Below are positions 11,115-46,775 of a stretch of DNA of 49,897 nucleotides, in pieces (positions within the stretch are counted from its first letter, which is position 1; every line of letters starts with the position of its first letter). A model generated the notes under the pieces. That model had not been told where the DNA came from and ran no database searches. It was given only the letters and a program-made list of their open reading frames with translations. The stretch lies in the sequence record OK272489.1; one strand, given 5' to 3'. The stretch comes from Escherichia phage JLBYU19. The translations under genes were made by a program, and so were the position numbers.

Positions 11115-11134
11115 TTTTAACAAAAAGTGCTATT
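11115..11134 (-). promoter_or_regulatory. conserved junction element (minus strand)
   Basis: exact consensus on minus strand; stop of upstream gene embedded; CATAAT 22 nt downstream. Confidence 0.6.
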
Positions 11135-11816
11135 TTGAGTTTGACTCAAAGACGGCGCGAGCAAATCCGCGCGGAGTGAGGGAGCGTAGTTGCTTTGTTC
11201 TGGCAGACTTACCGCCTAAAAACTTCCAACCCCAAAAGAACATTACGCCCTCATCATTGGATAACGGCTTGCGTTCCGGTTCGGTAAATCCGTTGCCGCA
11301 CCAGATAGCCGTCCTTTTAGTGTAGCCATCCTTTAGCGGCATTTTGGGGTGAAATGACCCATCGGATTCGTCCAAGTAGTTACCAAAATCGCGCGGATTG
11401 AAATAAAAATCCGGCTTGCGCCATAGCGTTGATAGTCGGCCTACCGGATTCTCAGCCATCCAGGGAACACCGAAATGATTTCCGACTTTTTCAACCATGA
11501 TTGCATTTTGGAGCGCGATATGAATATCGTCTTCGCTGCGCACATGCTTACTTCCTGATTGGGCGAACATGGTGCAGTCTGGAAAGCCAAATACAATATC
11601 AGGTTTTGGAATATCCATCTTAATGACGTTTTCAATGAAATTTTCATCAATCCACATATTCACATAATGCAGATTTTCATGCTTCATTTTGATGAAATAT
11701 TCTCCGTGATTGCCTTCGTCAGCGTTAAAGCAATAGCATTGATAACCAGCCTTCGCATATTCAAGCAACATGATTCCAGATCCATCAAACATTGAGTAAG
11801 CAACTTTATTTCCCAT
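11130..11816 (-). CDS. C5-cytosine DNA methyltransferase-like protein (short form)
   Basis: 228 aa from ATG 11816; FDGSG (motif I-like), GFPDCTMFAQSG (PC motif IV-like), ENP (motif VI-like); no obvious target-recognition domain; start ambiguous (11816/11840/11876). Confidence 0.5.
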   Translation of the reverse strand: MGNKVAYSMFDGSGIMLLEYAKAGYQCYCFNADEGNHGEYFIKMKHENLHYVNMWIDENFIENVIKMDIPKPDIVFGFPDCTMFAQSGSKHVRSEDDIHIALQNAIMVEKVGNHFGVPWMAENPVGRLSTLWRKPDFYFNPRDFGNYLDESDGSFHPKMPLKDGYTKRTAIWCGNGFTEPERKPLSNDEGVMFFWGWKFLGGKSARTKQLRSLTPRGFARAVFESNSK

Positions 11817-12333
11817 GATTTTTATGATACCCCAATTCATTCTCGGCTTTACGTTTTGCGGCAACAGCATCTCCAAAACTGGAGAAACAACCTATATAAA
11901 TCCTACTTCCTCGCTTTCCGCTTCCAACCCTTACAATCCACTTGCCATGTTTATTTTTATGCACACCTGGCATGCCACTTGTATTGTTTTTCTGCTTTGA
12001 TGTGTTTCGCATATTTCCTTTGTGATCTTTTAACTCAAAGTTTATTGCTCTGTTATCAGTCGTAATGTGATTTACGTGATCAACCTCCATTCCTTCCGGT
12101 ATAGGCCCATAGTGCATTTCATAGCATATTCTATGAACTTTCAGGTTATAACGTTTTCCGTTTACAGTAAGTGCGGTTTCTAAATATCTGCCACCACTAC
12201 CCAAAGAGCCAACCTCATTACCAGCATTACAAGCATTCCATTGTTTAACTCTTGATTGGTGAATATCTTTTCTTTCTTTCCAGAACAGCTTTCCGGTTTC
12301 TGGATTGTATGTAAAGTAATCGTGCCAATTCAT
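11806..12333 (-). CDS. HNH homing endonuclease with AP2-type DNA-binding domain
   Basis: 175 aa; HNH motif EVDHVNHITTDNRAINFEL; C-terminal AP2-like GVHKNKHGKWIVRV...YIGCF; GAGGT RBS. Confidence 0.75.
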   Translation of the reverse strand: MNWHDYFTYNPETGKLFWKERKDIHQSRVKQWNACNAGNEVGSLGSGGRYLETALTVNGKRYNLKVHRICYEMHYGPIPEGMEVDHVNHITTDNRAINFELKDHKGNMRNTSKQKNNTSGMPGVHKNKHGKWIVRVGSGKRGSRIYIGCFSSFGDAVAAKRKAENELGYHKNHGK

Positions 12334-12341
12334 TCATTACC

Positions 12342-12566
12342 TCAAAACGGAAAACAGCGCGGACAACCAGGATCGAAATCGCATCCACAATCATTAACAA
12401 TCATATTGGGATCTGCAAATATTGCGCTTGATTCAAGATCCATATCCATATCACCTAAAGCCTCATCAAGAGTCTTAATTTTATATGCCACTTCAAGCGC
12501 CGCCTCTTTATTTAGTCCGGCATCTTCTGCCATTTGAAGGCGCTCAAAAAAACCGTCCTGACTCAT
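12342..12566 (-). CDS. hypothetical acidic Cys-cluster protein
   Basis: 74 aa, strongly acidic, C-terminal CGCDFDPGCPRC. Confidence 0.45.
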   Translation of the reverse strand: MSQDGFFERLQMAEDAGLNKEAALEVAYKIKTLDEALGDMDMDLESSAIFADPNMIVNDCGCDFDPGCPRCFPF

Positions 12567-13270: not shown

Positions 13271-13551
13271 TATGCGATCCCAGTTACGTTAAAACTTACA
13301 GCCCTTGTTGCGCTAAATACATAAGCATCAACAGCGCCGCCAAATACACGAATTTTACCCTGGCCGTACTGCGCATTCATATTTCGCCAAACCGTTCTAT
13401 TAGAGCAGAATGCGCTACCAGTCTTAATAAGCGTATCCATCTCTTTTCTTAGATCGCGATAGTCAAGCCAGAATCTAAAGGCACGCTGTTTAATTCGCGC
13501 CGCCTTGATTTTTTCTCTTGCGCTATTGAAATCATTCTTTTCGTATGCCAT
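13270..13551 (-). CDS. hypothetical protein
   Basis: 93 aa, basic; single-nucleotide stop/start overlaps with neighbours. Confidence 0.45.
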   Translation of the reverse strand: MAYEKNDFNSAREKIKAARIKQRAFRFWLDYRDLRKEMDTLIKTGSAFCSNRTVWRNMNAQYGQGKIRVFGGAVDAYVFSATRAVSFNVTGIA

Positions 13552-13748
13552 TAAATGATCTCCATGTATGTTTCAAAGCCATTTAACTTGAACAGGCCGT
13601 TTTCACATTTGCGCACGTTCCAAGTTAGCCCTGAGTGGTACGCCTCCATATCATCAAGGTCAATGGTGATTTCAGCACCTTTCTTAAACAAGCCTTTTTC
13701 GTGAGACTTGTCGCGCTTAACAACTTTAACATCAACCTGATTTTCCAT
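13551..13748 (-). CDS. hypothetical protein
   Basis: 65 aa from ATG 13748 (GAGGA RBS), directly downstream of junction element 13805. Confidence 0.5.
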   Translation of the reverse strand: MENQVDVKVVKRDKSHEKGLFKKGAEITIDLDDMEAYHSGLTWNVRKCENGLFKLNGFETYMEII

Positions 13749-18532: not shown

Positions 18533-19123
18533 ATGAAACGAGACATTATTATCCTTAATGGGCCGCCTGGCTGTGGAAAGGACACTATTGCAGCTTACCT
18601 AACGGGCCATCGTTACCCAGCGGTTAAGGCGTCATTCAAGCAGCCGATGTTCGATATTGCGTTTTCCATGCTGGGCGTGTACAGATACGATGAATTTATG
18701 GACCTGTACAACGACCGAGAACAAAAAGAAAAGCCTCAAGTTATTTTGGGCGGCAAGTCACCTCGACAATTCATGATCTGGATTAGCGAGGATGTAATGA
18801 AGCCAGTTTTTGGGGATCACTATTTCGGGCGTCGAATGGTTGAAGAGATTCACGAGATGTACCGAGATTTGGCGGTTGTGATCAGTGATGGCGGATTCCC
18901 CGAAGAAATCAAGCCGCTCGTTAAGGCGGGGCATGAGGTGCATATTTGCCGATTGCATCGCGACGGCTTCACGTTTGCTGGCGATTCGAGAGACTACATT
19001 GACCTGAGCGGTTATCACTATCGAATCCATCACTATGACTTCCACTTGCAGGACGGCAAGCCGGAACTGGCTGTAAACGAGATCGTCAATACTGTCAAAT
19101 GGAAGCACACACAGATTAAATAG
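18533..19123 (+). CDS. P-loop nucleotide kinase (dNMP kinase-like)
   Basis: 196 aa; N-terminal Walker A ILNGPPGCGKDT. Confidence 0.6.
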   Translation: MKRDIIILNGPPGCGKDTIAAYLTGHRYPAVKASFKQPMFDIAFSMLGVYRYDEFMDLYNDREQKEKPQVILGGKSPRQFMIWISEDVMKPVFGDHYFGRRMVEEIHEMYRDLAVVISDGGFPEEIKPLVKAGHEVHICRLHRDGFTFAGDSRDYIDLSGYHYRIHHYDFHLQDGKPELAVNEIVNTVKWKHTQIK

Positions 19124-19137
19124 CACGAATTGCTAAA
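19119..19137 (+). promoter_or_regulatory. conserved junction element (variant AATAGCACGAATTGCTAAA)
   Basis: TTGCTA variant; TATAAT at 19158-19163; GC dyad 19139-19157. Confidence 0.55.
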
Positions 19138-19193
19138 CGCGGGGTTATCGGCCCCGCTATAATGCGCACATCAACAATCAAGAGGAAATCACA

Positions 19194-19574
19194 ATGGTTA
19201 ACATCAGAAAAATTCGCGTCGGCACTAAATTCTTAGTTACTTACGCAATTCCAGATAGCGGAATGAAGAAGGGCCAGATTGTTAAGGTTGATAGCAAAAG
19301 ATTCGGAATCCCTGGCATCAATGGCTATCTAATCAATAAAGATCTTGGATTCGGCGGCTTCGCTATCCGTTCGCTTGATGGTATTGTTGCTACCCTCAAG
19401 CAAATCACTAACCATCGCGGCTGCCCAATCAAGACGATTAAAGCGCCAACCAATTACGGCAAACTGGATAATCGTCGAATCCGCCGCCTGGCGCGTAACG
19501 CGTTAAAATTCCGTGGCGTAGGCGATGATTTCTACTATGGTTACAAGAGGATCGCGCGCAATGCTGGGAAATAA
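19194..19574 (+). CDS. hypothetical protein
   Basis: 126 aa; AAGAGGA RBS after junction element 19119. Confidence 0.5.
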   Translation: MVNIRKIRVGTKFLVTYAIPDSGMKKGQIVKVDSKRFGIPGINGYLINKDLGFGGFAIRSLDGIVATLKQITNHRGCPIKTIKAPTNYGKLDNRRIRRLARNALKFRGVGDDFYYGYKRIARNAGK

Positions 19575-19673
19575 CAATAACGCAACGAATCCTAAGCCAC
19601 CTTTTGATTTTCATTCCGCAATGATTGCGGTATTATCAATGCTACTTTTTCTTTATAGCATGAGGGCGCCACT

Positions 19674-19922
19674 ATGGTTTTTAACGCATTGAAACGACTG
19701 TTTAAGCCGGAATACCGGATCGTATTTTGCCGAGACTGTTCTACTTATCATGTGCAGCGACGCAGCTTAGGCGGCAATTGGCACTATGTTACAGACGACT
19801 TTTTCGGCATTATTGCCACTGAATTTAAGTATTACAGCGATGCTTATATGTACGTCAAGAAGCGCCACCGCTTACGCAAGTGTCGTTTTTCCGTGCTGAT
19901 TCACGTTAATGATTGTTACTGA
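19674..19922 (+). CDS. hypothetical protein with Cys pairs
   Basis: 82 aa, basic; CRDC plus distal Cys residues. Confidence 0.4.
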   Translation: MVFNALKRLFKPEYRIVFCRDCSTYHVQRRSLGGNWHYVTDDFFGIIATEFKYYSDAYMYVKKRHRLRKCRFSVLIHVNDCY

Positions 19923-19929
19923 GGTTAAA

Positions 19930-20112
19930 ATGAAAACTGGTATTATTATTCTTTTCCTGATCCTTTTCGGCAGTCATTTAACCATTAACTACGATGGCAT
20001 TATGGCATTTTGGGGCAACTTGATGATGTTTGCCGCTGGTTCGATTGCTGGCTACTCTGACGGGAAAAAGGATGGCGTTCGCAAGATGCTGATGGGGCTT
20101 AAACAAAAATAA
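19930..20112 (+). CDS. hypothetical membrane protein
   Basis: 60 aa from ATG 19930 (GAGG RBS); two hydrophobic helices. Confidence 0.4.
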   Translation: MKTGIIILFLILFGSHLTINYDGIMAFWGNLMMFAAGSIAGYSDGKKDGVRKMLMGLKQK

Positions 20113-20123
20113 GGGGATCTGAA

Positions 20124-20414
20124 ATGGCAAACAAAACTTACCGCAAACTACTGGTTAACGCTTTTGAAAACATCGCGCAGTGTAACAAGTGGAACGACTC
20201 TAAACACTCGCCAGTCACAATGAAGCGCGCAGGATTCAAAAATGCTCGTTCATGGGCGCGAGCTTTCGCAGCTTGCTATATGCCGGATGGCGGACTAGGG
20301 GTGATGAACGATTTTTTGATCAACATGATAGAGGAAGCGGCGCGAGAGGATCGACCGCTGACACAGCGAGATTTTGACGACTTCGCGCGCGATGAGCTTT
20401 ACTATCTGAGCTAA
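20124..20414 (+). CDS. hypothetical protein
   Basis: 96 aa; AAGGGGA RBS; stop inside junction element. Confidence 0.45.
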   Translation: MANKTYRKLLVNAFENIAQCNKWNDSKHSPVTMKRAGFKNARSWARAFAACYMPDGGLGVMNDFLINMIEEAAREDRPLTQRDFDDFARDELYYLS

Positions 20415-20432
20415 TAGCACTTTTTGTTAAAA
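20413..20432 (+). promoter_or_regulatory. conserved junction element AATAGCACTTTTTGTTAAAA
   Basis: exact consensus; TAAAGT at 20452-20457 within AAGGGCA/TGCCCTT dyad. Confidence 0.6.
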
Positions 20433-20489
20433 CTTCCGCAAGGGCATTTGGTAAAGTGCCCTTATTGAAGCGAAACAGAGGAAAGCGCA

Positions 20490-20702
20490 ATGAAAATCAA
20501 AATCACCAAAATCGACACTGTCAACGGCGACGGATCAATCACTCTTGAGCAATGTGGCCTGGTTGTTGGTGATGTGCTGGAAGTTGACGGACATTTCAGC
20601 GACGGATCTTATTGTGTTATTGCGCCGCGTAACAGCGAGTTTATCAAGGCTGGCGACAATATTAGTGTTAACCATGACGAATGCGAGGTAGTAGAAGAAT
20701 GA
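20490..20702 (+). CDS. hypothetical acidic protein
   Basis: 70 aa; GAGGAAAG RBS after junction element 20413. Confidence 0.45.
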   Translation: MKIKITKIDTVNGDGSITLEQCGLVVGDVLEVDGHFSDGSYCVIAPRNSEFIKAGDNISVNHDECEVVEE

Positions 20703-20962
20703 TCACGATTAACCTGTCAGAGCAGCAAGCGCGCATTATGTTAGCGGCCTTTGGCTGGCGAGATGATGACGGCATCCAGGCAACGGTTAAAATTCCTGAG
20801 CAAGTGGCCCGTGAAGTTTTCAGCCAGCTAGAACACGCATTTGATCCTGCTGGGACTGAGCAAGCGGAAGCTGCCGCATGGTTCGGAGAGAATGGATACA
20901 GAGATCAGCAAGTCGAAAACTGGAAGCGCATAAACGAGACTATGGAGGAATCAGGTTTATGA
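20699..20962 (+). CDS. hypothetical acidic protein
   Basis: 87 aa from ATG 20699 (ATGA coupling). Confidence 0.45.
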   Translation: MITINLSEQQARIMLAAFGWRDDDGIQATVKIPEQVAREVFSQLEHAFDPAGTEQAEAAAWFGENGYRDQQVENWKRINETMEESGL

Positions 20963-21273
20963 TTTACATTCACTACTACCAAATCGGAACTAACGAGAAC
21001 AAGAAAGAGCATCGTTTCATCCATGATGATTTGGACAAGGCAAAGGCGCAGCAACAGGTTTTAGGAGGTGTCATTCAGGCTTTTGAGCCTGTAGAAGATA
21101 TTGAGTACCGCGAGCATTTAAAAGATGTTGTTATTGATGAGATCTCTTGCTTGATTGATGATATGACAAATCACGGCCCTGGTTCCCCGTGGGAAGATGC
21201 AGGATCTGTAACGTGGGATAAGGCCAAAGTTAAGACGCTAAACAACTTTCGAGAGATTCTCGACGGTTTTTAA
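20959..21273 (+). CDS. hypothetical protein
   Basis: 104 aa from ATG 20959 (ATGA coupling). Confidence 0.45.
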   Translation: MIYIHYYQIGTNENKKEHRFIHDDLDKAKAQQQVLGGVIQAFEPVEDIEYREHLKDVVIDEISCLIDDMTNHGPGSPWEDAGSVTWDKAKVKTLNNFREILDGF

Positions 21274-21343
21274 TTAAAAACGCATAGCCGTTAGAGCGCC
21301 TAAATCGCATTCTAACGAGCTATTTTTCTGGTAAGGTGATTTA

Positions 21344-21472
21344 ATGGATGAGTACAAACAACCCTCGCAATGGTGCAAAGAGAAGCAGGAGGAAGCACTT
21401 GAGCGCGGAGATGTAGAAGAAGCTATGAACTATTTCAAACTTGCGGAAGAATGGAAGGGGAGAGGATACTGA
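21344..21472 (+). CDS. hypothetical small protein (not in ORF track)
   Basis: 42 codons; AAGGTGA RBS. Confidence 0.3.
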   Translation: MDEYKQPSQWCKEKQEEALERGDVEEAMNYFKLAEEWKGRGY

Positions 21473-21702
21473 TGTTCGGCATGAACGAGGCGCAATTCAA
21501 CGCAGCTAAACGCCAGGCTAAAAAGTGCGGCGAGGCAATGAAAGCGGATGTGGAAAAGCGCGGGAAGTATGTTGATGAAGTAATGAAGGGAATCATTGCA
21601 GAACACTACCAGCCAATCGCGCCAATGTTGACGATCACTCAATTCATTTGGCTATGTGGTTACTTGCGCGGACGTTGGGGGAACGCTTTCGACAGGGAAT
21701 GA
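21472..21702 (+). CDS. hypothetical protein
   Basis: 76 aa from ATG 21472, overlapping upstream stop. Confidence 0.4.
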   Translation: MFGMNEAQFNAAKRQAKKCGEAMKADVEKRGKYVDEVMKGIIAEHYQPIAPMLTITQFIWLCGYLRGRWGNAFDRE

Positions 21703-21791
21703 TTGACAACTCTTTCCTGATTGGTTAGCATGGCGTCGTTTACATAAGAGCGGCTTTGTCCGAACGCGTGACGCGATAGTCACACAACAAC

Positions 21792-21850
21792 GGCGATATG
21801 CAGGAGGTTTTTGCAATGCAAAATAATCCGTAAGACGTATCGCCTTTTTT
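21792..21850 (+). terminator. possible terminator/attenuator (long-loop hairpin + T6)
   Basis: GGCGATA ... TATCGCC 7-bp stem enclosing about 39 nt, followed by TTTTTT. Confidence 0.3.
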
Positions 21851-21864
21851 AATGGAGATCCAAA

Positions 21865-22098
21865 ATGATTAAATACAAATTAACCGTTTCTTTCCGTGAT
21901 ACCGTTATTCATCCTTTCTACAATAGCTTTGTTAACAGCTTTACAGTAGAAGCGACAAGTGATCAGCTTGACGGTGACGAAACTTGCATTTCTATCGGCA
22001 ATGTTGCTTATCCGATTCACAACATTACCAGCATTAAGCGTGAGGTTGTCGCTGATGAATTACAAAGTGAAGATGACGATCCGGCGAATGGGGCGTAA
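21865..22098 (+). CDS. hypothetical acidic protein
   Basis: 77 aa; GGAG RBS; preceded by hairpin plus T6. Confidence 0.45.
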   Translation: MIKYKLTVSFRDTVIHPFYNSFVNSFTVEATSDQLDGDETCISIGNVAYPIHNITSIKREVVADELQSEDDDPANGA

Positions 22099-22240
22099 CT
22101 GCCAATCATGCAAACAGGAATATGAATGCGTAGTCGATGCTCTTGATGAACTGGAAGCAGTAGCAAAAGCAAAAGAGCAATCGGGCGCTAATCCTGAAAC
22201 ACATCAATTTTCAATTAATCTTGTGAGGGCTTTACAATGA
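22073..22240 (+). CDS. hypothetical CxxC protein (start uncertain)
   Basis: 55 aa in alternative frame, overlapping upstream gene by 26 nt; weak RBS. Confidence 0.25.
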   Translation: MTIRRMGRNCQSCKQEYECVVDALDELEAVAKAKEQSGANPETHQFSINLVRALQ

Positions 22241-22461
22241 TCGCATTATCTTTCTGCATTGGTTTTATCATGGCTATCATTATCTTTTCCGTTGTCATGC
22301 GCTTTGCTTATAAGTTCGTGATTAATAAAGGTTGGTACGCTTCTGCCATCTGGAGCGAAAAACAAAAGAAATGGCTTGTACGTGGTCAATACCTGATGAT
22401 CGGCAGCAAGATCCTAAATTCCATTCGAGCCAAAGATGGGAAAGTAAAATATACAGCTTAA
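22237..22461 (+). CDS. hypothetical membrane protein
   Basis: 74 aa; N-terminal hydrophobic helix; followed by intrinsic terminator. Confidence 0.4.
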   Translation: MIALSFCIGFIMAIIIFSVVMRFAYKFVINKGWYASAIWSEKQKKWLVRGQYLMIGSKILNSIRAKDGKVKYTA

Positions 22462-22465
22462 AAAT

Positions 22466-22490
22466 CACCCGCCGAACGGCGGGTTTTTTA
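22466..22490 (+). terminator. intrinsic terminator at end of early rightward block
   Basis: CACCCGCC-gaac-GGCGGG hairpin + T7. Confidence 0.65.
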
Positions 22491-22502
22491 TTGCCCGTTG
22501 TT

Positions 22503-22511
22503 TGGTATAAT
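22503..22511 (+). promoter_or_regulatory. candidate extended -10 promoter before terminase genes
   Basis: TGGTATAAT (TGn + TATAAT) 12 nt after terminator T-tract and 29 nt before TerS ATG; no good -35. Confidence 0.35.
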
Positions 22512-22539
22512 CAGGCATCTAACCAAAGGAGGATTAACA

Positions 22540-23067
22540 ATGGCTAAAAACGTTGAGCCTGCTGTAAAGGCATTAAATTTCAAAGAGTTATACAATAAAA
22601 CTTATGGCGATATTGTTACGCTAAACAACCGCCACAAGTACACGCCGGAACAGGTTTTTGATATGGCGATCCGCTATTTCACTTGGGCCGAAGAGAATCA
22701 CATCCAGGCGGCTGAAACTGCTTCCTTTCAGGGTGACGTGTACGAGAGCAGAGTTTACAAGCCTCGCGTTTTCACGGTTAACGGATTCAGCTTGTATCTC
22801 GGCGTGACTGAGGCTGCCGTAAGCAAATGGCGTAAAGAGCCTGGATTCTGCGATGTGATGGAGTTTGTTGATAAAGTAATTTACGAGCAAAAATTCCAGC
22901 TTGCGGCAAATAACATGATTAATGCTGGATTTATCGGTAAAGAGATCGGCGTAGAGAAGCCAGCAACAGTGAGCGTTGAAGCTAGCGCGGCAGCTAATGC
23001 AAGCATTGACGCAGTAACTGCCGATGAGGTGAAAGAGGCTGTTATTGATATTCTGGAGCAACTTTAA
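22540..23067 (+). CDS. terminase small subunit
   Basis: 175 aa from ATG 22540 (AAGGAGG RBS); immediately upstream of and overlapping large terminase gene. Confidence 0.55.
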   Translation: MAKNVEPAVKALNFKELYNKTYGDIVTLNNRHKYTPEQVFDMAIRYFTWAEENHIQAAETASFQGDVYESRVYKPRVFTVNGFSLYLGVTEAAVSKWRKEPGFCDVMEFVDKVIYEQKFQLAANNMINAGFIGKEIGVEKPATVSVEASAAANASIDAVTADEVKEAVIDILEQL

Positions 23068-24635
23068 TGATCATATGGGAAGATTTGACGGCGGCGCAAA
23101 AGCGAGCCATTAAAGAAATCAGTGAGCATTCATTCGAAAAGATGATCAGAATCTGGTTTCAGTTATTGCAGGGGCAAAAATTCCAGAGCAACTGGCATTT
23201 TAGCTTATTGTGCAGTGAGGTAGAGAAGATCATCAATGGAGAGTCGCAGAATGTGATTTTCAACATTACGCCAGGTAGCGGTAAGACTGAGATTTTCTCG
23301 ATCCACATGTCACCCTACGCGTCATTGAAAAGTCGGAAGGTGAGAAACCTTAACCTTTCGTTTAGTGATGGACTTGTCCAGCAAAACAGCAACAGGATAA
23401 AGGAGATTATCGGTTCTCCTGAGTGGCAAGAGCTATGGCCAGGAAAACTGGCAAAGGCGAGCGCAAAAGATCTCATAGTTACGGATGGCGGCAAGGTTAA
23501 ATTGCAAGTTAACTCACGTTCTATTGGCGGACAGGTAACAGGTTTGCGTGGCGGCTATATGGACGATGGTTTTACTGGTATGCTGGTTCTGGACGATCCA
23601 GACAAGCCGGATGATATGCTTTCTAAGGTCAAGCGTGAGGCGATCCACATGCGGTTAAAAAACACAGTGCGATCGCGTCGAATGAAAGACACTACGCCGA
23701 TTGTTATGGTGCAACAGCGACTACACGTTAATGATTCCACCTGGTTCATGCTTAATGGCGGAATGGGTGGTATTGAGTTTAAAGTCGTGAGCATTCCGGC
23801 GCTGGTTACGAAAGAATACCGCGAATCGCTTCCTGATTGGTTGAAGCCTGAATTTGATCGTGATGTGCTGTCAAGTAAGCCAGTGATGATAGATGGCGTT
23901 GCTCATTATTCATTTTGGCCTGCGAAGGAAAGCGCGGAGGAGTTGCTTGCATTGCGCAATGCAGATCCTTACACGTTCTCCAGCCAATACCAACAGCAAC
24001 CAATCGCGCTGGGCGGGAACGTGTTTAAAACAGAGTGGTTCCAGTATTACGGCAGCGGCGAAAAATGCGCACTTCCTAAACCGGATCGCTTTGAATACAC
24101 ATTTATTACTGGAGATACCGCGCAGAAGGCCGGAGAGCTTAACGACTATTCTGTTTTTTGTTATTGGGGGATGTATAAGAATCGCGTTTACTTCATTGAT
24201 GGCATTCGCGGAAAGTGGGAAGCGCCGGATCTTGAATTAAATTTTATTGCCTTCGTTAATCAGTGCTGGAAGCGCAATAAGGAGTGTGGCAGCTTGCGAC
24301 GTATCCACATTGAGGATAAGGCCAGCGGCACTGGTTTGATTCAGGGGGCCAAAAAGAAGATCCCGATTGATATAAATCCCGTTCAGCGAAGCAACGACAA
24401 GGTAACGAGAGCAATGGACGCCGCGCCAGTAATGAGGGCCGGACGTGTGGCACTGCCAGAAAATCACCCAATGCTGCCTGAGATACTGGCAGAGGTTGCA
24501 GCATTCACTTTTGATGATTCTCATCCCCATGATGATATTGTCGATAATATAGTTGATGCTGTTAACGTCGAAATGAACTTGGCAGATGATCCGGTGGCAA
24601 GGATGAAAAAGCTGGCTGGTCTACGCAATAAATAG
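23067..24635 (+). CDS. terminase large subunit
   Basis: 522 aa; Walker A-like NITPGSGKT; position and size. Confidence 0.8.
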   Translation: MIIWEDLTAAQKRAIKEISEHSFEKMIRIWFQLLQGQKFQSNWHFSLLCSEVEKIINGESQNVIFNITPGSGKTEIFSIHMSPYASLKSRKVRNLNLSFSDGLVQQNSNRIKEIIGSPEWQELWPGKLAKASAKDLIVTDGGKVKLQVNSRSIGGQVTGLRGGYMDDGFTGMLVLDDPDKPDDMLSKVKREAIHMRLKNTVRSRRMKDTTPIVMVQQRLHVNDSTWFMLNGGMGGIEFKVVSIPALVTKEYRESLPDWLKPEFDRDVLSSKPVMIDGVAHYSFWPAKESAEELLALRNADPYTFSSQYQQQPIALGGNVFKTEWFQYYGSGEKCALPKPDRFEYTFITGDTAQKAGELNDYSVFCYWGMYKNRVYFIDGIRGKWEAPDLELNFIAFVNQCWKRNKECGSLRRIHIEDKASGTGLIQGAKKKIPIDINPVQRSNDKVTRAMDAAPVMRAGRVALPENHPMLPEILAEVAAFTFDDSHPHDDIVDNIVDAVNVEMNLADDPVARMKKLAGLRNK

Positions 24636-45622: not shown

Positions 45623-46276
<654 letters not shown>

Positions 46277-46279
<3 letters not shown>

Positions 46280-46325
46280 TAAACGGGGCGCTTGCGCCCC
46301 TTTTGTCATAGGAGAAAACAAAATG
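46277..46325 (+). repeat. leader element shared with connector-gene leader (30616-30667)
   Basis: same stop-hairpin-TTGTCATA-GGAGAAAACAAA-ATG arrangement. Confidence 0.55.
46285..46308 (+). terminator. hairpin/attenuator in ssb leader
   Basis: GGGGCGC-tt-GCGCCCC followed by TTTTGTCAT. Confidence 0.4.
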
Positions 46326-46775
46326 CACGTTATTACAGGTGAGATTCGAAAAGAGCCAAAAGTAAAGCAAATGCCTAACGGCAGCACGCTATATGTTATT
46401 GAGCTTTCCGAGCGATACAAAGACCGAGAAGGAAATTGGCAGTATACAAACTATGTGTTTTTCTTTAACGCGAAAACAGACGGCCTGAATGGTTGGTATG
46501 CCGAGGCGTTCCAGGTAGGCAAGGTTGTTTCTGTTTCCTGCGATACCTTGCGAGTTGAAACGCGAGAATACAACGGAAAGATTTACAGCACCGTGCAGCC
46601 TGGCGGATTTGCAAACTTGCTATTTAGCCAGAGAGGTGAAAGCCAGCAACAATATCAGCAGCGAACGCAAGGAGGCTGGGGGCAACCACAACAGCAACAG
46701 CAACAAAATACTCAACAGCATCCGCAGCAAAGCAATCAGCCTCCGATTGACTTTGACGACGATATACCATTCTGA
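46323..46775 (+). CDS. ssb: single-stranded DNA-binding protein
   Basis: 150 aa from ATG 46323 (AGGAG RBS); Gln/Gly-rich linker and acidic C-terminal tail DFDDDIPF. Confidence 0.8.
   Translation: MHVITGEIRKEPKVKQMPNGSTLYVIELSERYKDREGNWQYTNYVFFFNAKTDGLNGWYAEAFQVGKVVSVSCDTLRVETREYNGKIYSTVQPGGFANLLFSQRGESQQQYQQRTQGGWGQPQQQQQQNTQQHPQQSNQPPIDFDDDIPF

What the first reader, a model, noticed from the sequence alone, without database searches (positions are those of the whole stretch)
20490..22098. Clusters of small acidic early proteins as candidate host-takeover or anti-defence factors
Several 55-100 aa ORFs in the early regions are strongly acidic (20490..20702, 20699..20962, 21865..22098, 12342..12566; the last also carries a CGCDFDPGCPRC cluster). 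None has a recognisable enzymatic motif. Small acidic phage proteins are often DNA mimics or inhibitors of host defence or replication proteins. This is a hypothesis only.
Basis: inference. Interest (0 to 1): 0.45.

Follow-up and report, generated by a model that had tools for sequence, protein, structure and literature searches.

The report
Small acidic proteins of T1-like phage
Four unrelated small acidic proteins of a T1-like coliphage are real, conserved genes of unknown function with no evidence of DNA mimicry, but one of them ends in a copy of the docking peptide of the bacterial single-strand-DNA-binding protein, which suggests it interferes with, or borrows, the host's DNA-maintenance enzymes.

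Summary
The window is a Warwickvirus (T1-like, Drexlerviridae) genome. The four ORFs exist at the stated coordinates and match annotated CDSs. They are the only four products of about 80 with pI below 4.5. They are four unrelated families with different evolutionary behaviour, not one system.

- **A (20490-20702):** an orphan family under strong purifying selection. It sits in a slot that always holds an acidic protein of about 70 aa.
- **B (20699-20962):** Pfam DUF7180. Its core is swapped between near-identical phages, and its acidity is not conserved.
- **C (21865-22098):** a patchy accessory gene behind a conserved promoter and structured leader.
- **D (12342-12566):** a conserved helical N-domain, an acidic linker and an invariant Cys4 knuckle. 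Every D-family form ends in Phi-P-F/W. Only the phage's own SSB (DFDDDIPF) shares that tip.

No tool result supports DNA mimicry. Charge density is at or below that of T7 Gp5.9, and the AlphaFold models were too weak to use. My best mechanistic lead is that D is an SSB-tip decoy or adaptor. "Early" expression is inferred only from promoter boxes and terminators. No functional data exist for any of the four. Overall this is an ordinary class of gene with one specific, testable new idea.

The parts
20415..20433 (+). Promoter-associated box TAGCACTTTTTGTTAAAAC upstream of A, followed by an extended -10-like TGGTAAAGT flanked by the inverted repeat AAGGGCA/TGCCCTT
   Evidence: Exact copy of a box found 15 times in the window against 0.22 expected. 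The intergenic element is conserved upstream of the A slot in swan01, Bas07, Samwise, LL5 and T1.
20490..20702 (+). A: 70-aa acidic protein (pI 4.34, net -9), probably beta-rich, with conserved C-terminus E-[CYF]-x-V-[VI]-E-E. Orphan family phrog_5684.
   Evidence: Present in 402 phage records. 87% identical in the Klebsiella phage Samwise, where neighbouring small genes are 49-63%; 20 synonymous against 9 non-synonymous codon differences. Family members have pI 4.05-4.87.
20699..20962 (+). B: 87-aa DUF7180 protein, translationally coupled to A by an ATGA overlap. The termini are conserved and the core is replaceable.
   Evidence: Pfam PF23805, E=7e-30. 310 phage records including T1 Orf60. 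In swan01 only about 20715-20930 is replaced (47% aa identity) while the flanks are at least 97% identical. Other alleles have net charge 0 to -3.
20959..21273 (+). Third gene of the coupled A-B-E module (104 aa, pI 4.82, net -9), phrog_11192, function unknown
   Evidence: 4-nt overlap with B.
21703..21731 (+). Sigma-70-type promoter TTGACA-N17-TAGCAT immediately after the stop codon of the preceding gene
   Evidence: 10 of 12 consensus positions. The -35 element ATGATTGAC is conserved in Bas07, Samwise, LL5 and T1.
21738..21852 (+). Conserved structured leader or small RNA. It has hairpin 1 (21768-21783) and a long stem (21792-21800 paired with 21836-21844) followed by a U-run, directly upstream of C's ribosome-binding site.
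   Evidence: RNAalifold gives 24 pairs, 6 of them with changes on both sides. MFE -33.1 kcal/mol, z = -2.0. No Rfam match. Also present in phages that lack C.
21865..22098 (+). C: 77-aa accessory protein (pI 4.29, net -8), with a beta-rich body and the acidic tail ELQSEDDDPANGA. Its last 44 nt overlap the next gene.
   Evidence: 101 phage records. Absent from Bas07, Samwise and T1. The differences from SECphi27 form a recombination patch in codons 19-49.
22055..22240 (+). 61-aa gene (phrog_2919) overlapping the 3' end of C. It is conserved from Warwickvirus to T1.
22237..22461 (+). 74-aa basic membrane protein (DUF7299), last gene of the block
   Evidence: The T1 homologue is annotated with a single transmembrane domain.
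22467..22492 (+). Intrinsic terminator that closes the small-gene block, followed by the extended -10 TGGTATAAT for the terminase operon
   Evidence: Conserved in swan01, Samwise, LL5 and T1 and annotated as a terminator in T1.
12342..12566 (-). D: 74-aa protein (pI 4.05, net -11) made of a conserved N-terminal helical domain, the acidic linker DEALGDMDMDxES, and a Cys4 knuckle ending in FPF-COOH. Orthologue of SECphi27 gp15 and T1 Orf6.
12345..12395 (-). C-terminal module of D: NDCGCDFDPGCPRCFPF (CxC-x5-CxxC plus a Phi-P-F tip)
   Evidence: Invariant in 30 homologues. The tip is conserved as IPW, IPF or IPFW in forms that lack the Cys cluster. Background frequency of such a terminus is about 0.16%.
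11806..12333 (-). HNH endonuclease gene inserted between D and the methyltransferase in this phage
   Evidence: Pfam HNH_3, E=9.6e-15. Absent at this position in SECphi27.
11130..11840 (-). DNA methyltransferase, the usual immediate downstream neighbour of Cys4-type D
   Evidence: phrog_757, E=2.5e-78. Adjacent to D in SECphi27, Klebsiella K50_evo17, Yersinia YP10S2 and LL5.
46323..46775 (+). The phage's own SSB, ending in ...PPIDFDDDIPF. It is the only other real gene in the window with a Phi-P-F C-terminus.
   Evidence: phrog_44 single-strand DNA-binding protein, E=4e-22. Tip sequence. It lies next to an ERF-family recombinase.

Best explanation
The four ORFs are genuine genes for four unrelated small, non-enzymatic, cytoplasmic proteins. 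They are encoded in the two non-structural arms of a T1-like (Warwickvirus) genome and transcribed from the phage's standard promoter modules. They are not a coherent set of DNA mimics. I read them as protein-binding modulators with different targets.

D is the one with a readable mechanism. It has a conserved three-helix N-domain, an acidic linker, and a C-terminal tip (Phi-P-F/W with a free carboxylate) that imitates the SSB C-terminal docking peptide DDDIPF. I infer that D docks into the SSB-tip pockets of SSB-interacting proteins. These could be host enzymes such as ExoI, RecQ, PriA, RecG, RecO or the chi subunit, or the phage's own replication and recombination proteins. D would act either as a decoy that keeps them off SSB-coated phage DNA or as an adaptor that brings them to whatever the N-domain binds.

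A is a constrained acidic beta-rich protein that works with the DUF7180 module on a target conserved between E. coli and Klebsiella. B and C are mosaic or accessory genes whose variable parts probably face a variable partner.

What is shown: gene reality, acidity, conservation patterns, synteny, the tip motif and its rarity. What is inferred: all binding partners and all biological roles.
For: - **Gene reality and acidity:**
- **No enzymatic or known family:**
- **D, acidity conserved:** pI 4.05-4.38 and net -8 to -17 in seven genera or forms.
- **D, domain pattern:** the N-domain is invariant, and in the C-terminal region only the penultimate Pro is invariant across eight divergent forms.
- **D, convergent tip:** four unrelated C-terminal architectures end alike. 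These are CxRCFPF (Tempevirinae and Klebsiella phages), GCRECIPFW (a Yersinia phage), EDVDDYIPW (T1) and KFDDGIPF (Nouzillyvirus).
- **D, same tip as SSB:** the window's SSB ends in IDFDDDIPF. SSB-Ct = DDDIPF is the conserved docking tip for at least 17 partner proteins (PMC5872125, PMC10018359).
- **D, rarity of the tip:** of 1,259 six-frame ORFs, 11 end in Phi-P-[FW]. Eight are D-family members, one is SSB and two are unrelated.
- **A, constraint:** 87% identical to a Klebsiella phage where the other small genes are 49-63%, with 20 synonymous and 9 non-synonymous codon differences.
- **A, slot:** in T1 and LL5 the slot holds non-homologous proteins of 67-69 aa with net -10 to -14.
- **B:** the internal cassette is replaced between otherwise 97-100% identical phages.
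- **C:** patchy distribution and a recombination patch.
- **Promoter modules and terminator:**
- **Precedent from a neighbour:** the neighbouring small gene (the Gp54-Bas11/Gp19 homologue) is non-essential in the laboratory and is sensed by a host defence (PMC11578894).
Against: - No experiment and no reliable structure supports any binding partner.
- In the window's own D the residues just before the tip are Cys, Pro and Arg, not the Asp run of SSB-Ct. The nearest acidic residues (DFD) lie 9-11 residues from the end. The resemblance to SSB-Ct is strong only in the Tunavirus and Nouzillyvirus forms.
- The tip pattern was noticed after looking at the sequences, so it is post hoc.
- One T1-like variant ends in TPW and the Yersinia form carries an extra W after IPF.
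- The AlphaFold models are weak: pLDDT 64 for D and 53.5 for A.
- Cys4-type D is tightly linked to a DNA methyltransferase, which suggests a different partner.
- Expression timing is unknown.
Confidence: 0.4

Rival explanations
1. One reading: one or more of the four, most plausibly D or A, is a DNA mimic. It would occupy the DNA-binding site of a host restriction, BREX, RecBCD or other defence or replication protein, as T7 Ocr and Gp5.9 do.
For: - pI is 4.05-4.34.
- D's charge density (-0.149 per residue) equals that of the validated mimic T7 Gp5.9 (-0.154), and A's is -0.129.
- Acidity is conserved across the D family, the A family and the A slot, even where sequence is not.
- D lies next to a DNA methyltransferase in most lineages. 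That would make a small anti-restriction island.
Against: - There is no homology to Ocr, ArdA, Gam or any other known family or solved structure.
- All four are well below Ocr in charge density (-0.239).
- B's acidity is not conserved.
- C's charge sits mostly in a short C-terminal tail.
- D was not found on plasmids, where classic anti-restriction genes are common.
- A's strong conservation between phages of different host genera does not fit a strain-variable defence target.
- No usable structure was obtained.
Confidence: 0.13
2. D is a zinc-binding partner or regulator of the adjacent DNA methyltransferase. The Cys4 knuckle and tip contact the enzyme, for example to control its activity, specificity or timing, and the resemblance to the SSB tip is a coincidence.
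For: - Cys4-type D lies upstream of a DNA methyltransferase in the same orientation in SECphi27, a Klebsiella phage, a Yersinia phage and LL5. The gap is 8-10 nt in the first three and 195 nt in LL5.
- Tunavirus forms that lack the Cys cluster are followed by a different gene.
- The four Cys are invariant.
Against: - The sample is small (five lineages against two) and the pattern may only reflect shared ancestry.
- In this window an HNH gene separates D from the methyltransferase without any change to D.
- The N-domain and the Phi-P-F/W tip are kept in lineages with no adjacent methyltransferase. The conserved core function is therefore not tied to that enzyme.
Confidence: 0.12
3. The proteins serve the phage's own processes and have no host target. 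Examples are accessory factors for replication, recombination or DNA packaging, or chaperones for other phage proteins. A-B-E and C lie directly upstream of the terminase genes, and D lies in the helicase and methyltransferase operon.
For: - The position immediately upstream of TerS/TerL is conserved from Warwickvirus to T1.
- A is about as conserved as TerL in Samwise (87% against 91%).
- 269 records carry A at 80-90% identity, while only 187 have TerL at 80% or more.
- D shares its tip with the phage SSB. It could therefore address the phage's own SSB partners (Erf, exonuclease, helicase).
Against: - A terminator and a separate promoter divide the block from the terminase operon.
- The A slot is filled by non-homologous proteins in T1 and LL5, and C is absent from many relatives. 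That is unusual for a core mechanical role.
- B's core is swapped freely.
Confidence: 0.2

Closest known systems
C-terminal tip of bacterial SSB (SSB-Ct, DDDIPF) and its pockets on SSB-interacting proteins
   Same: The D family ends in Phi-P-F/W at the extreme C-terminus after an acidic segment. The Nouzillyvirus form (KFDDGIPF) and the T1 form (EDVDDYIPW) closely match DFDDDIPF. The window's own SSB carries exactly that tip (PMC5872125, PMC10018359).
   Different: D has no OB fold and is not an SSB. In the window's D the tip follows a Cys4 knuckle (CPRCFPF) and not an Asp run. No binding has been tested. I found no described free-standing phage protein of this kind.
Phage DNA-mimic proteins: T7 Ocr (gene 0.3) and T7 Gp5.9
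   Same: They are small, acidic and non-enzymatic, and are encoded outside the structural genes. D and A have a charge density near that of Gp5.9.
   Different: There is no sequence or profile similarity. Charge density is far below Ocr. No structure shows DNA-like charge spacing. B's charge is not conserved.
Gp54 of phage Bas11 / Gp19 of SECphi27 (small T1-like protein that triggers the CapRelSJ46 defence)
   Same: It belongs to the same phage group and the same leftward small-gene arm as D. The window carries an identical Gp19 copy at 13551-13748. It is small, of unknown function and non-essential in the laboratory, and its gene has the same promoter box.
   Different: It is not acidic (pI 5.6). 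A shows no similarity to it (hhalign probability 0.2%), and none of A-D matched its solved structure by sequence.
Pfam DUF7180 (PF23805)
   Same: B is a full-length member (E=7e-30, 104 bits against a cut-off of 27).
   Different: The family has no known function, and no paper in the library mentions it.
Phage accessory genes in variable hotspots (Silas et al., bioRxiv 10.1101/2023.04.06.535777)
   Same: B (cassette replacement) and C (patchy presence in a slot behind a conserved promoter) behave like hotspot accessory genes.
   Different: A and D are conserved in sequence and position. No T1-like phage or homologue is named in the main text of that paper.

Membership tests
DNA-mimic proteins (Ocr, Gp5.9, ArdA type) | Very high negative charge density | tested here: inconclusive
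   Net charge per residue is -0.10 to -0.15, against -0.154 for Gp5.9 and -0.239 for Ocr. D and A reach the lower bound; B and C do not.
DNA-mimic proteins (Ocr, Gp5.9, ArdA type) | Surface carboxylates arranged with the spacing of DNA phosphates in the folded protein | tested here: inconclusive
   AlphaFold2 models have pLDDT 53.5 (A) and 64.1 (D), too low to read a surface.
DNA-mimic proteins (Ocr, Gp5.9, ArdA type) | Sequence or profile homology to a known mimic family | tested here: not met
   No Pfam, NCBIfam or PHROG hit of that kind and no PDB sequence or profile hit.
DNA-mimic proteins (Ocr, Gp5.9, ArdA type) | Binds the DNA-binding site of a target protein and blocks it | not testable with these tools
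   This needs biochemistry or genetics.
SSB-Ct-type docking tip | Extreme C-terminus is hydrophobic-Pro-Phe (or Trp) with a free carboxylate | tested here: met
   The tip is FPF in the window and in 29 of 30 aligned sequences (FPL in one). It is IPW, IPF or IPFW in divergent forms. Background frequency is about 0.16%.
SSB-Ct-type docking tip | Run of acidic residues immediately before the tip (DDD in SSB) | tested here: inconclusive
   Met in T1, ADB-2 and IME167 (DDDDY/DVDDY) and in p111 (FDDG). Not met in the window's D (GCPRC), whose nearest acidic residues (DFD) lie 9-11 residues from the end.
SSB-Ct-type docking tip | Tip presented on a flexible tail | tested here: inconclusive
   The model shows coil after residue 38 at low confidence. 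The invariant Cys4 cluster suggests a small folded knuckle in the Tempevirinae form.
SSB-Ct-type docking tip | Binds the basic/hydrophobic pocket of SSB-interacting proteins | not testable with these tools
Pfam DUF7180 (B) | Full-length match above the gathering score | tested here: met
   E=7e-30, 104 bits against a cut-off of 27; residues 1-85 match profile positions 1-77 of 79.
SpoVT-AbrB / MazE antitoxin fold (considered for A) | Profile similarity to the swapped-hairpin domain | tested here: not met
   hhalign of the A alignment against MazE gives probability 0.3%. One of 21 family members hits PF04014 at E=0.048.
Ribbon-helix-helix regulators (considered for B) | N-terminal beta-strand plus two helices matching RHH profiles | tested here: not met
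   Only six residues (TINLSE/TITLSE) align with CopG, probability 1.5%. No RHH protein appears in the PDB profile search and there is no Pfam RHH hit.
Cys4 zinc knuckle (C-terminus of D) | Four invariant Cys with metal-site spacing | tested here: met
   CxC-x5-CxxC is invariant in 30 homologues and present in the Yersinia form. It is absent from the Tunavirus and Nouzillyvirus forms. Metal binding itself cannot be tested here.
Hotspot accessory (candidate counter-defence) genes | Variable presence or allele replacement between closely related genomes | tested here: met
   Met for B and C. Not met for A within Warwickvirus and the Klebsiella phages or for D.
Hotspot accessory (candidate counter-defence) genes | Expressed early and dispensable in a defence-free host | not tested
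   No transcriptome or knockout data were found. There is only indirect evidence from promoter boxes and from the dispensable neighbouring gene 54 in Bas11.

The most novel reading that the evidence does not exclude
The D family (SECphi27 gp15, T1 Orf6) would be the first free-standing viral mimic of the SSB C-terminal docking peptide. It would be a small protein that plugs the SSB-tip pockets of host genome-maintenance enzymes. By doing so the phage would disconnect the host SSB interactome from phage DNA, or would redirect those enzymes through D's conserved N-domain. Different Drexlerviridae lineages would have rebuilt the linker three or four times (Cys4 knuckle, poly-acidic tail, other) while keeping the tip.
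Probability: 0.3. Interest if true: 0.7.

Novelty: new variant of a known kind. Interest (0 to 1): 0.42.

Why it matters
Small proteins of unknown function make up about a third of the genes in T1-like phages. These phages are now workhorses of phage-defence research (SECphi27, the BASEL collection). This analysis shows that 'small and acidic' is not one functional class here, and it separates the four genes by evolutionary behaviour, which tells experimenters where to look.

- **D:** offers a precise and inexpensive test, by deleting or mutating three C-terminal residues. If confirmed, it would reveal a new way for viruses to manipulate the bacterial SSB hub, which is also an antibiotic target.
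- **B and C:** the better candidates for strain-specific counter-defence screens.
- **Promoter box and structured leader:** these give handles for mapping the transcription programme of this phage family, which is still uncharted.

Tried and rejected
- **A as an AbrB/MazE-like antitoxin mimic:** suggested by the S-I-T-L...G-D-x-L-E-V motif and by one depositor's annotation. Rejected: hhalign probability 0.3%, and only 1 of 21 members hits the Pfam model weakly.
- **A related to the Gp54-Bas11/Gp19 beta-barrel:** rejected.
- **A's large hits in the exhaustive search:** these are Big_12 Ig-repeat proteins in which a short hairpin motif is summed over repeats. The BurrH hit in the PDB is the same kind of artefact.
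- **A's fold:** the weak hits to DUF5666, DPBB, FeoA, CsrA and SH3 suggest only 'a small beta-barrel' and are all below threshold.
- **A-slot proteins of T1 and LL5 as distant homologues of A:** not detectable.
- **B as a ribbon-helix-helix protein:** rejected.
- **Structure prediction of A and D:** both models had low confidence. I therefore ran no fold searches, because they would have been meaningless.
- **PDB sequence and profile searches for A-D:** nothing significant.
- **D on plasmids:** none found.
- **Depositors' names:** 'methyltransferase type 11', 'AbrB-like', '26S protease subunit' and 'ipe' have no support in Pfam, NCBIfam or PHROGs.
- **Literature:** nothing on DUF7180, on SECphi27 gp15/43/44/48, on Drexlerviridae counter-defence genes, or on a T1-like transcriptome.
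Full report
**What the window is.** The region 19000-23200 is 99.3% identical to Escherichia phage vB_EcoS_XY3. It is 98-99% identical to tunus and SECphi27 (Drexlerviridae, Tempevirinae, Warwickvirus), which are T1-like lytic siphoviruses. The genome has two divergent arms of small and DNA-metabolism genes: a minus-strand arm at about 8.0-15.6 kb and a plus-strand arm at about 16.2-22.5 kb. The terminase and structural genes follow from 22.5 kb.

**Observation check.** Each has a Shine-Dalgarno sequence and is an annotated CDS in close relatives. I call them A (20490-20702), B (20699-20962), C (21865-22098) and D (12342-12566, minus strand).
- Their pI values are 4.34, 4.34, 4.29 and 4.05. 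Their net charges are -9, -9, -8 and -11.
- In a corrected gene list they are the only products with pI below 4.5; the median over about 80 genes is 7.6.
- The 'cluster' claim is weak. A, B and the next two genes form a run of four acidic products, with P=0.045 by shuffling gene order. C and D lie elsewhere.
- No enzymatic family matches any of them.

**A.**
- **Family size.** The family is tiny. The word-indexed search found 35 clusters, all 70 aa and 66-89% identical. The exhaustive HMMER search of 1.84 billion representatives found about 16 small relatives.
- **Artefacts.** The large proteins in that list are Big_12 repeat artefacts.
- **Conserved features.** The broader alignment conserves MKIxI, LTLxECGFxVGD and the terminus E-[CYF]-x-V-[VI]-E-E. 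Only one Cys is conserved, so there is no metal site. All members are acidic, with pI 4.05-4.87.
- **Fold hints.** Profile hits point only vaguely to a small beta-barrel. The AbrB/MazE idea and a link to the Gp54 barrel fail.
- **Distribution.** A occurs in 402 phage records, 268 of them Klebsiella phages at 80-90% identity.
- **Constraint.** In the Klebsiella phage Samwise, A is 87% identical. The other small genes of the block are 49-63%, TerS 59%, portal 79% and TerL 91%. There are 20 synonymous and 9 non-synonymous codon differences, so this is long-term purifying selection and not recent transfer.
- **Replacement elsewhere.** In the closer Hanrivervirus Bas07, A is only about 46-50% identical. 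In T1 and LL5 the same slot, coupled to the DUF7180 gene, holds proteins with no detectable similarity (blastp E>0.7; hhalign 0.2%). They have the same size (69 and 67 aa) and acidity (net -14 and -10) and also have acidic C-termini. Charge is what is conserved at this position.

**B.**
- B is a full-length DUF7180 protein present in 310 phage records including T1 Orf60.
- Its start overlaps A's stop (ATGA) and its stop overlaps the next gene.
- In swan01 every gene of the block is 95-100% identical to the window except B (46.7%) and a gene at 19194 (47.4%). The replaced DNA runs from about 20715 to 20930, inside the ORF, with flanks at least 97% identical.
- The conserved parts are the first 11 residues and the AAW...WKR segment.
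- Other alleles and orthologues are not acidic, with net charge -3, -3, -1 and 0. B's charge in this phage is therefore incidental.
- A ribbon-helix-helix reading of its N-terminus is not supported.

**C.**
- C has no Pfam or PHROG family and only four clusters in the large protein collection.
- It is a real gene. It keeps its full length of 77 aa down to 48% identity in 101 Escherichia, Shigella and Salmonella phage records.
- It is absent from Bas07, Samwise and T1. LL5 gp25 looks like a distant relative by eye.
- Against SECphi27 all 13 changed codons (6 synonymous, 7 non-synonymous) lie in codons 19-49. This is a recombination patch.
- Its acidic tail is encoded by the 44 nt that overlap the next, widely conserved gene.

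**D.**
- **Identity and distribution.** D is SECphi27 gp15 (97% identical) and the orthologue of T1 Orf6. It occurs in 449 phage records and not on plasmids.
- **Conserved residues.** Thirty homologues keep an N-terminal motif (RLxxAExAGLNKEAALEVAYK...LDEALGDMDMD) and an invariant NDCGCxFDPxCxRCFPF.
- **Model.** The model shows three short helices and then coil, at low confidence.
- **Divergent forms.** All divergent forms keep the N-domain and the acidity (net -8 to -17) but rebuild the C-terminal part. A Yersinia phage has SCGCTGEEGCRECIPFW. T1, IME167 and ADB-2 have a Cys-free poly-acidic tail ending in DDYIPW. Nouzillyvirus p111 has another linker ending in KFDDGIPF.
- **What survives.** Phi-P-F/W at the extreme C-terminus is the one feature of the C-terminal part that survives.
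- **Link to SSB.** Among 349 six-frame ORFs of the window only three have such an end: D, an antisense junk ORF, and the phage's SSB (phrog_44, E=4e-22). The SSB ends in IDFDDDIPF.
- **Rarity.** Over all fetched loci, 11 of 1,259 ORFs have this end. Eight are D-family members, one is SSB and two are unrelated.
- **Known role of the tip.** DDDIPF is the conserved SSB tip through which SSB recruits at least 17 genome-maintenance proteins (PMC5872125, PMC10018359).
- **Inference.** I infer that D presents an SSB-like tip and competes for, or exploits, the tip-binding pockets.
- **Reservation.** In the window's D the tip follows Cys-Pro-Arg-Cys and not an Asp run.
- **Synteny.** Cys4-type D lies directly upstream of a DNA methyltransferase in SECphi27, a Klebsiella phage, a Yersinia phage and LL5. 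The Cys-less forms do not. In the window an HNH gene has been inserted between them. This supports the rival idea of a methyltransferase partner.

**Regulatory context.**
- **Repeated box.** The 19-nt box TAGCACTTTTTGTTAAAAC occurs 15 times against 0.22 expected. Twelve copies are co-oriented with the module they precede. These include the helicase, the methyltransferase, the Gp19 gene and the A-B-E module (box at 20415).
- **Extended -10.** An extended -10 follows the box.
- **Genetic support.** In Bas11, escape mutations 'immediately upstream of gene 54' lowered its expression, which fits a promoter role for this module.
- **Conservation.** The element upstream of the A slot is conserved as far as T1.
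- **C's promoter.** A separate sigma-70-type promoter at 21703-21731 is conserved in five genera. It is followed by a structured leader of about 115 nt that ends in a hairpin plus U-run. Both stems show compensatory changes. There is no Rfam match. The element is present even where C is absent.
- **End of the block.** A terminator at 22467-22492 and a new extended -10 separate the block from the terminase operon in all lineages.
- **Timing.** I found no transcriptome for any T1-like phage. 'Early' therefore remains an inference.

**Test of the DNA-mimic idea.**
- T7 Ocr has a net charge per residue of -0.239 and T7 Gp5.9 has -0.154. A, B, C and D have -0.129, -0.103, -0.104 and -0.149. Charge alone puts D and A at the lower edge of validated mimics.
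- There is no homology to any mimic and no usable model.
- The idea is not excluded for A and D. It is weak for C and poorly founded for B.

**Comparison with the known, and novelty.** All four genes are already annotated as hypothetical proteins, and three belong to PHROG or Pfam families of unknown function. As a class (small non-enzymatic phage proteins) they are ordinary. What may be new is the SSB-tip reading of the D family. My literature search found no description of a free-standing phage protein of this kind. That search covers only the held library.

**Verdict.** Interest is moderate (0.42), carried by the D hypothesis and by the conserved acidic A slot. Confidence in the overall explanation is 0.4.

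Noticed in passing
window 13551-13748 (-): This is an exact copy of SECphi27 Gp19, the homologue of Gp54 of Bas11. Gp54 is a 66-aa SH3-like beta-barrel that directly activates the CapRelSJ46 defence (PMC11578894). It lies in the same leftward small-gene arm as D, about 1 kb upstream.
   Followed up: partly
window 21703-21852 (+): A conserved sigma-70-type promoter is followed by a structured RNA of about 115 nt. The RNA has two hairpins with compensatory changes, conserved CGTnnACATAAGAG and CCGTAAG boxes, and a terminal hairpin plus U-run. It is present in Warwickvirus, Hanrivervirus, a Klebsiella phage, LL5 and T1, has no Rfam match, and could be an attenuator or a small RNA.
   Followed up: partly
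window 1476, 3965, 5036, 19121, 20415, 24633 (+); 8278, 10440, 11114, 13804, 14310, 15614 (-); 29257, 33010, 43787 (-): The 19-nt box TAGCACTTTTTGTTAAAAC is repeated 15 times against 0.22 expected. It sits in intergenic gaps ahead of gene modules and is followed by an extended -10. Three copies lie antisense to the late structural genes, which I cannot explain.
   Followed up: partly
window 46323-46775 (+): The phage SSB (phrog_44) carries the exact host-type tip DFDDDIPF and sits next to an ERF-family recombinase (45626-46279). Two PHROG families of unknown function (phrog_4477, phrog_2544; 393 and 362 positions) match only its Q-rich tail and tip. Other phage proteins may therefore carry SSB-like tails.
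   Followed up: partly
window 11806-12333 (-): An HNH_3 endonuclease gene is inserted between D and the DNA methyltransferase. It is absent at this position in SECphi27 and appears to overlap the start of the methyltransferase gene. It is probably a homing-endonuclease insertion.
   Followed up: partly
window 19194-19574 (+): This is a 126-aa very basic protein (pI 10.8) with no Pfam or PHROG family. Like B, it is replaced by a 47%-identical allele in swan01 while all neighbours are 95-100% identical, making it a second allele-replacement hotspot.
   Followed up: no
window 22055-22098 (+): There is a 44-nt overlap between the 3' end of C and the start of the next gene (phrog_2919). It is annotated in the same way in several relatives, and C's acidic tail is encoded entirely within this overlap.
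   Followed up: no
window 20459-20482 (+): The inverted repeat AAGGGCA/TGCCCTT brackets the -10-like element upstream of A. An analogous repeat brackets it in the Klebsiella phage Samwise (GGGGTA/TACCCC). It may be an operator or a 5' hairpin.
   Followed up: no
L001 and L002 (XY3, JLBYU07) annotations of the A, B and 21472-21702 homologues: Public records name these genes 'methyltransferase type 11', 'AbrB family regulator-like', '26S protease regulatory subunit 7' and 'ipe: inducer of pleiotropic effects'. No profile library supports any of these names, and they seem to be propagated mis-annotations.
   Followed up: yes
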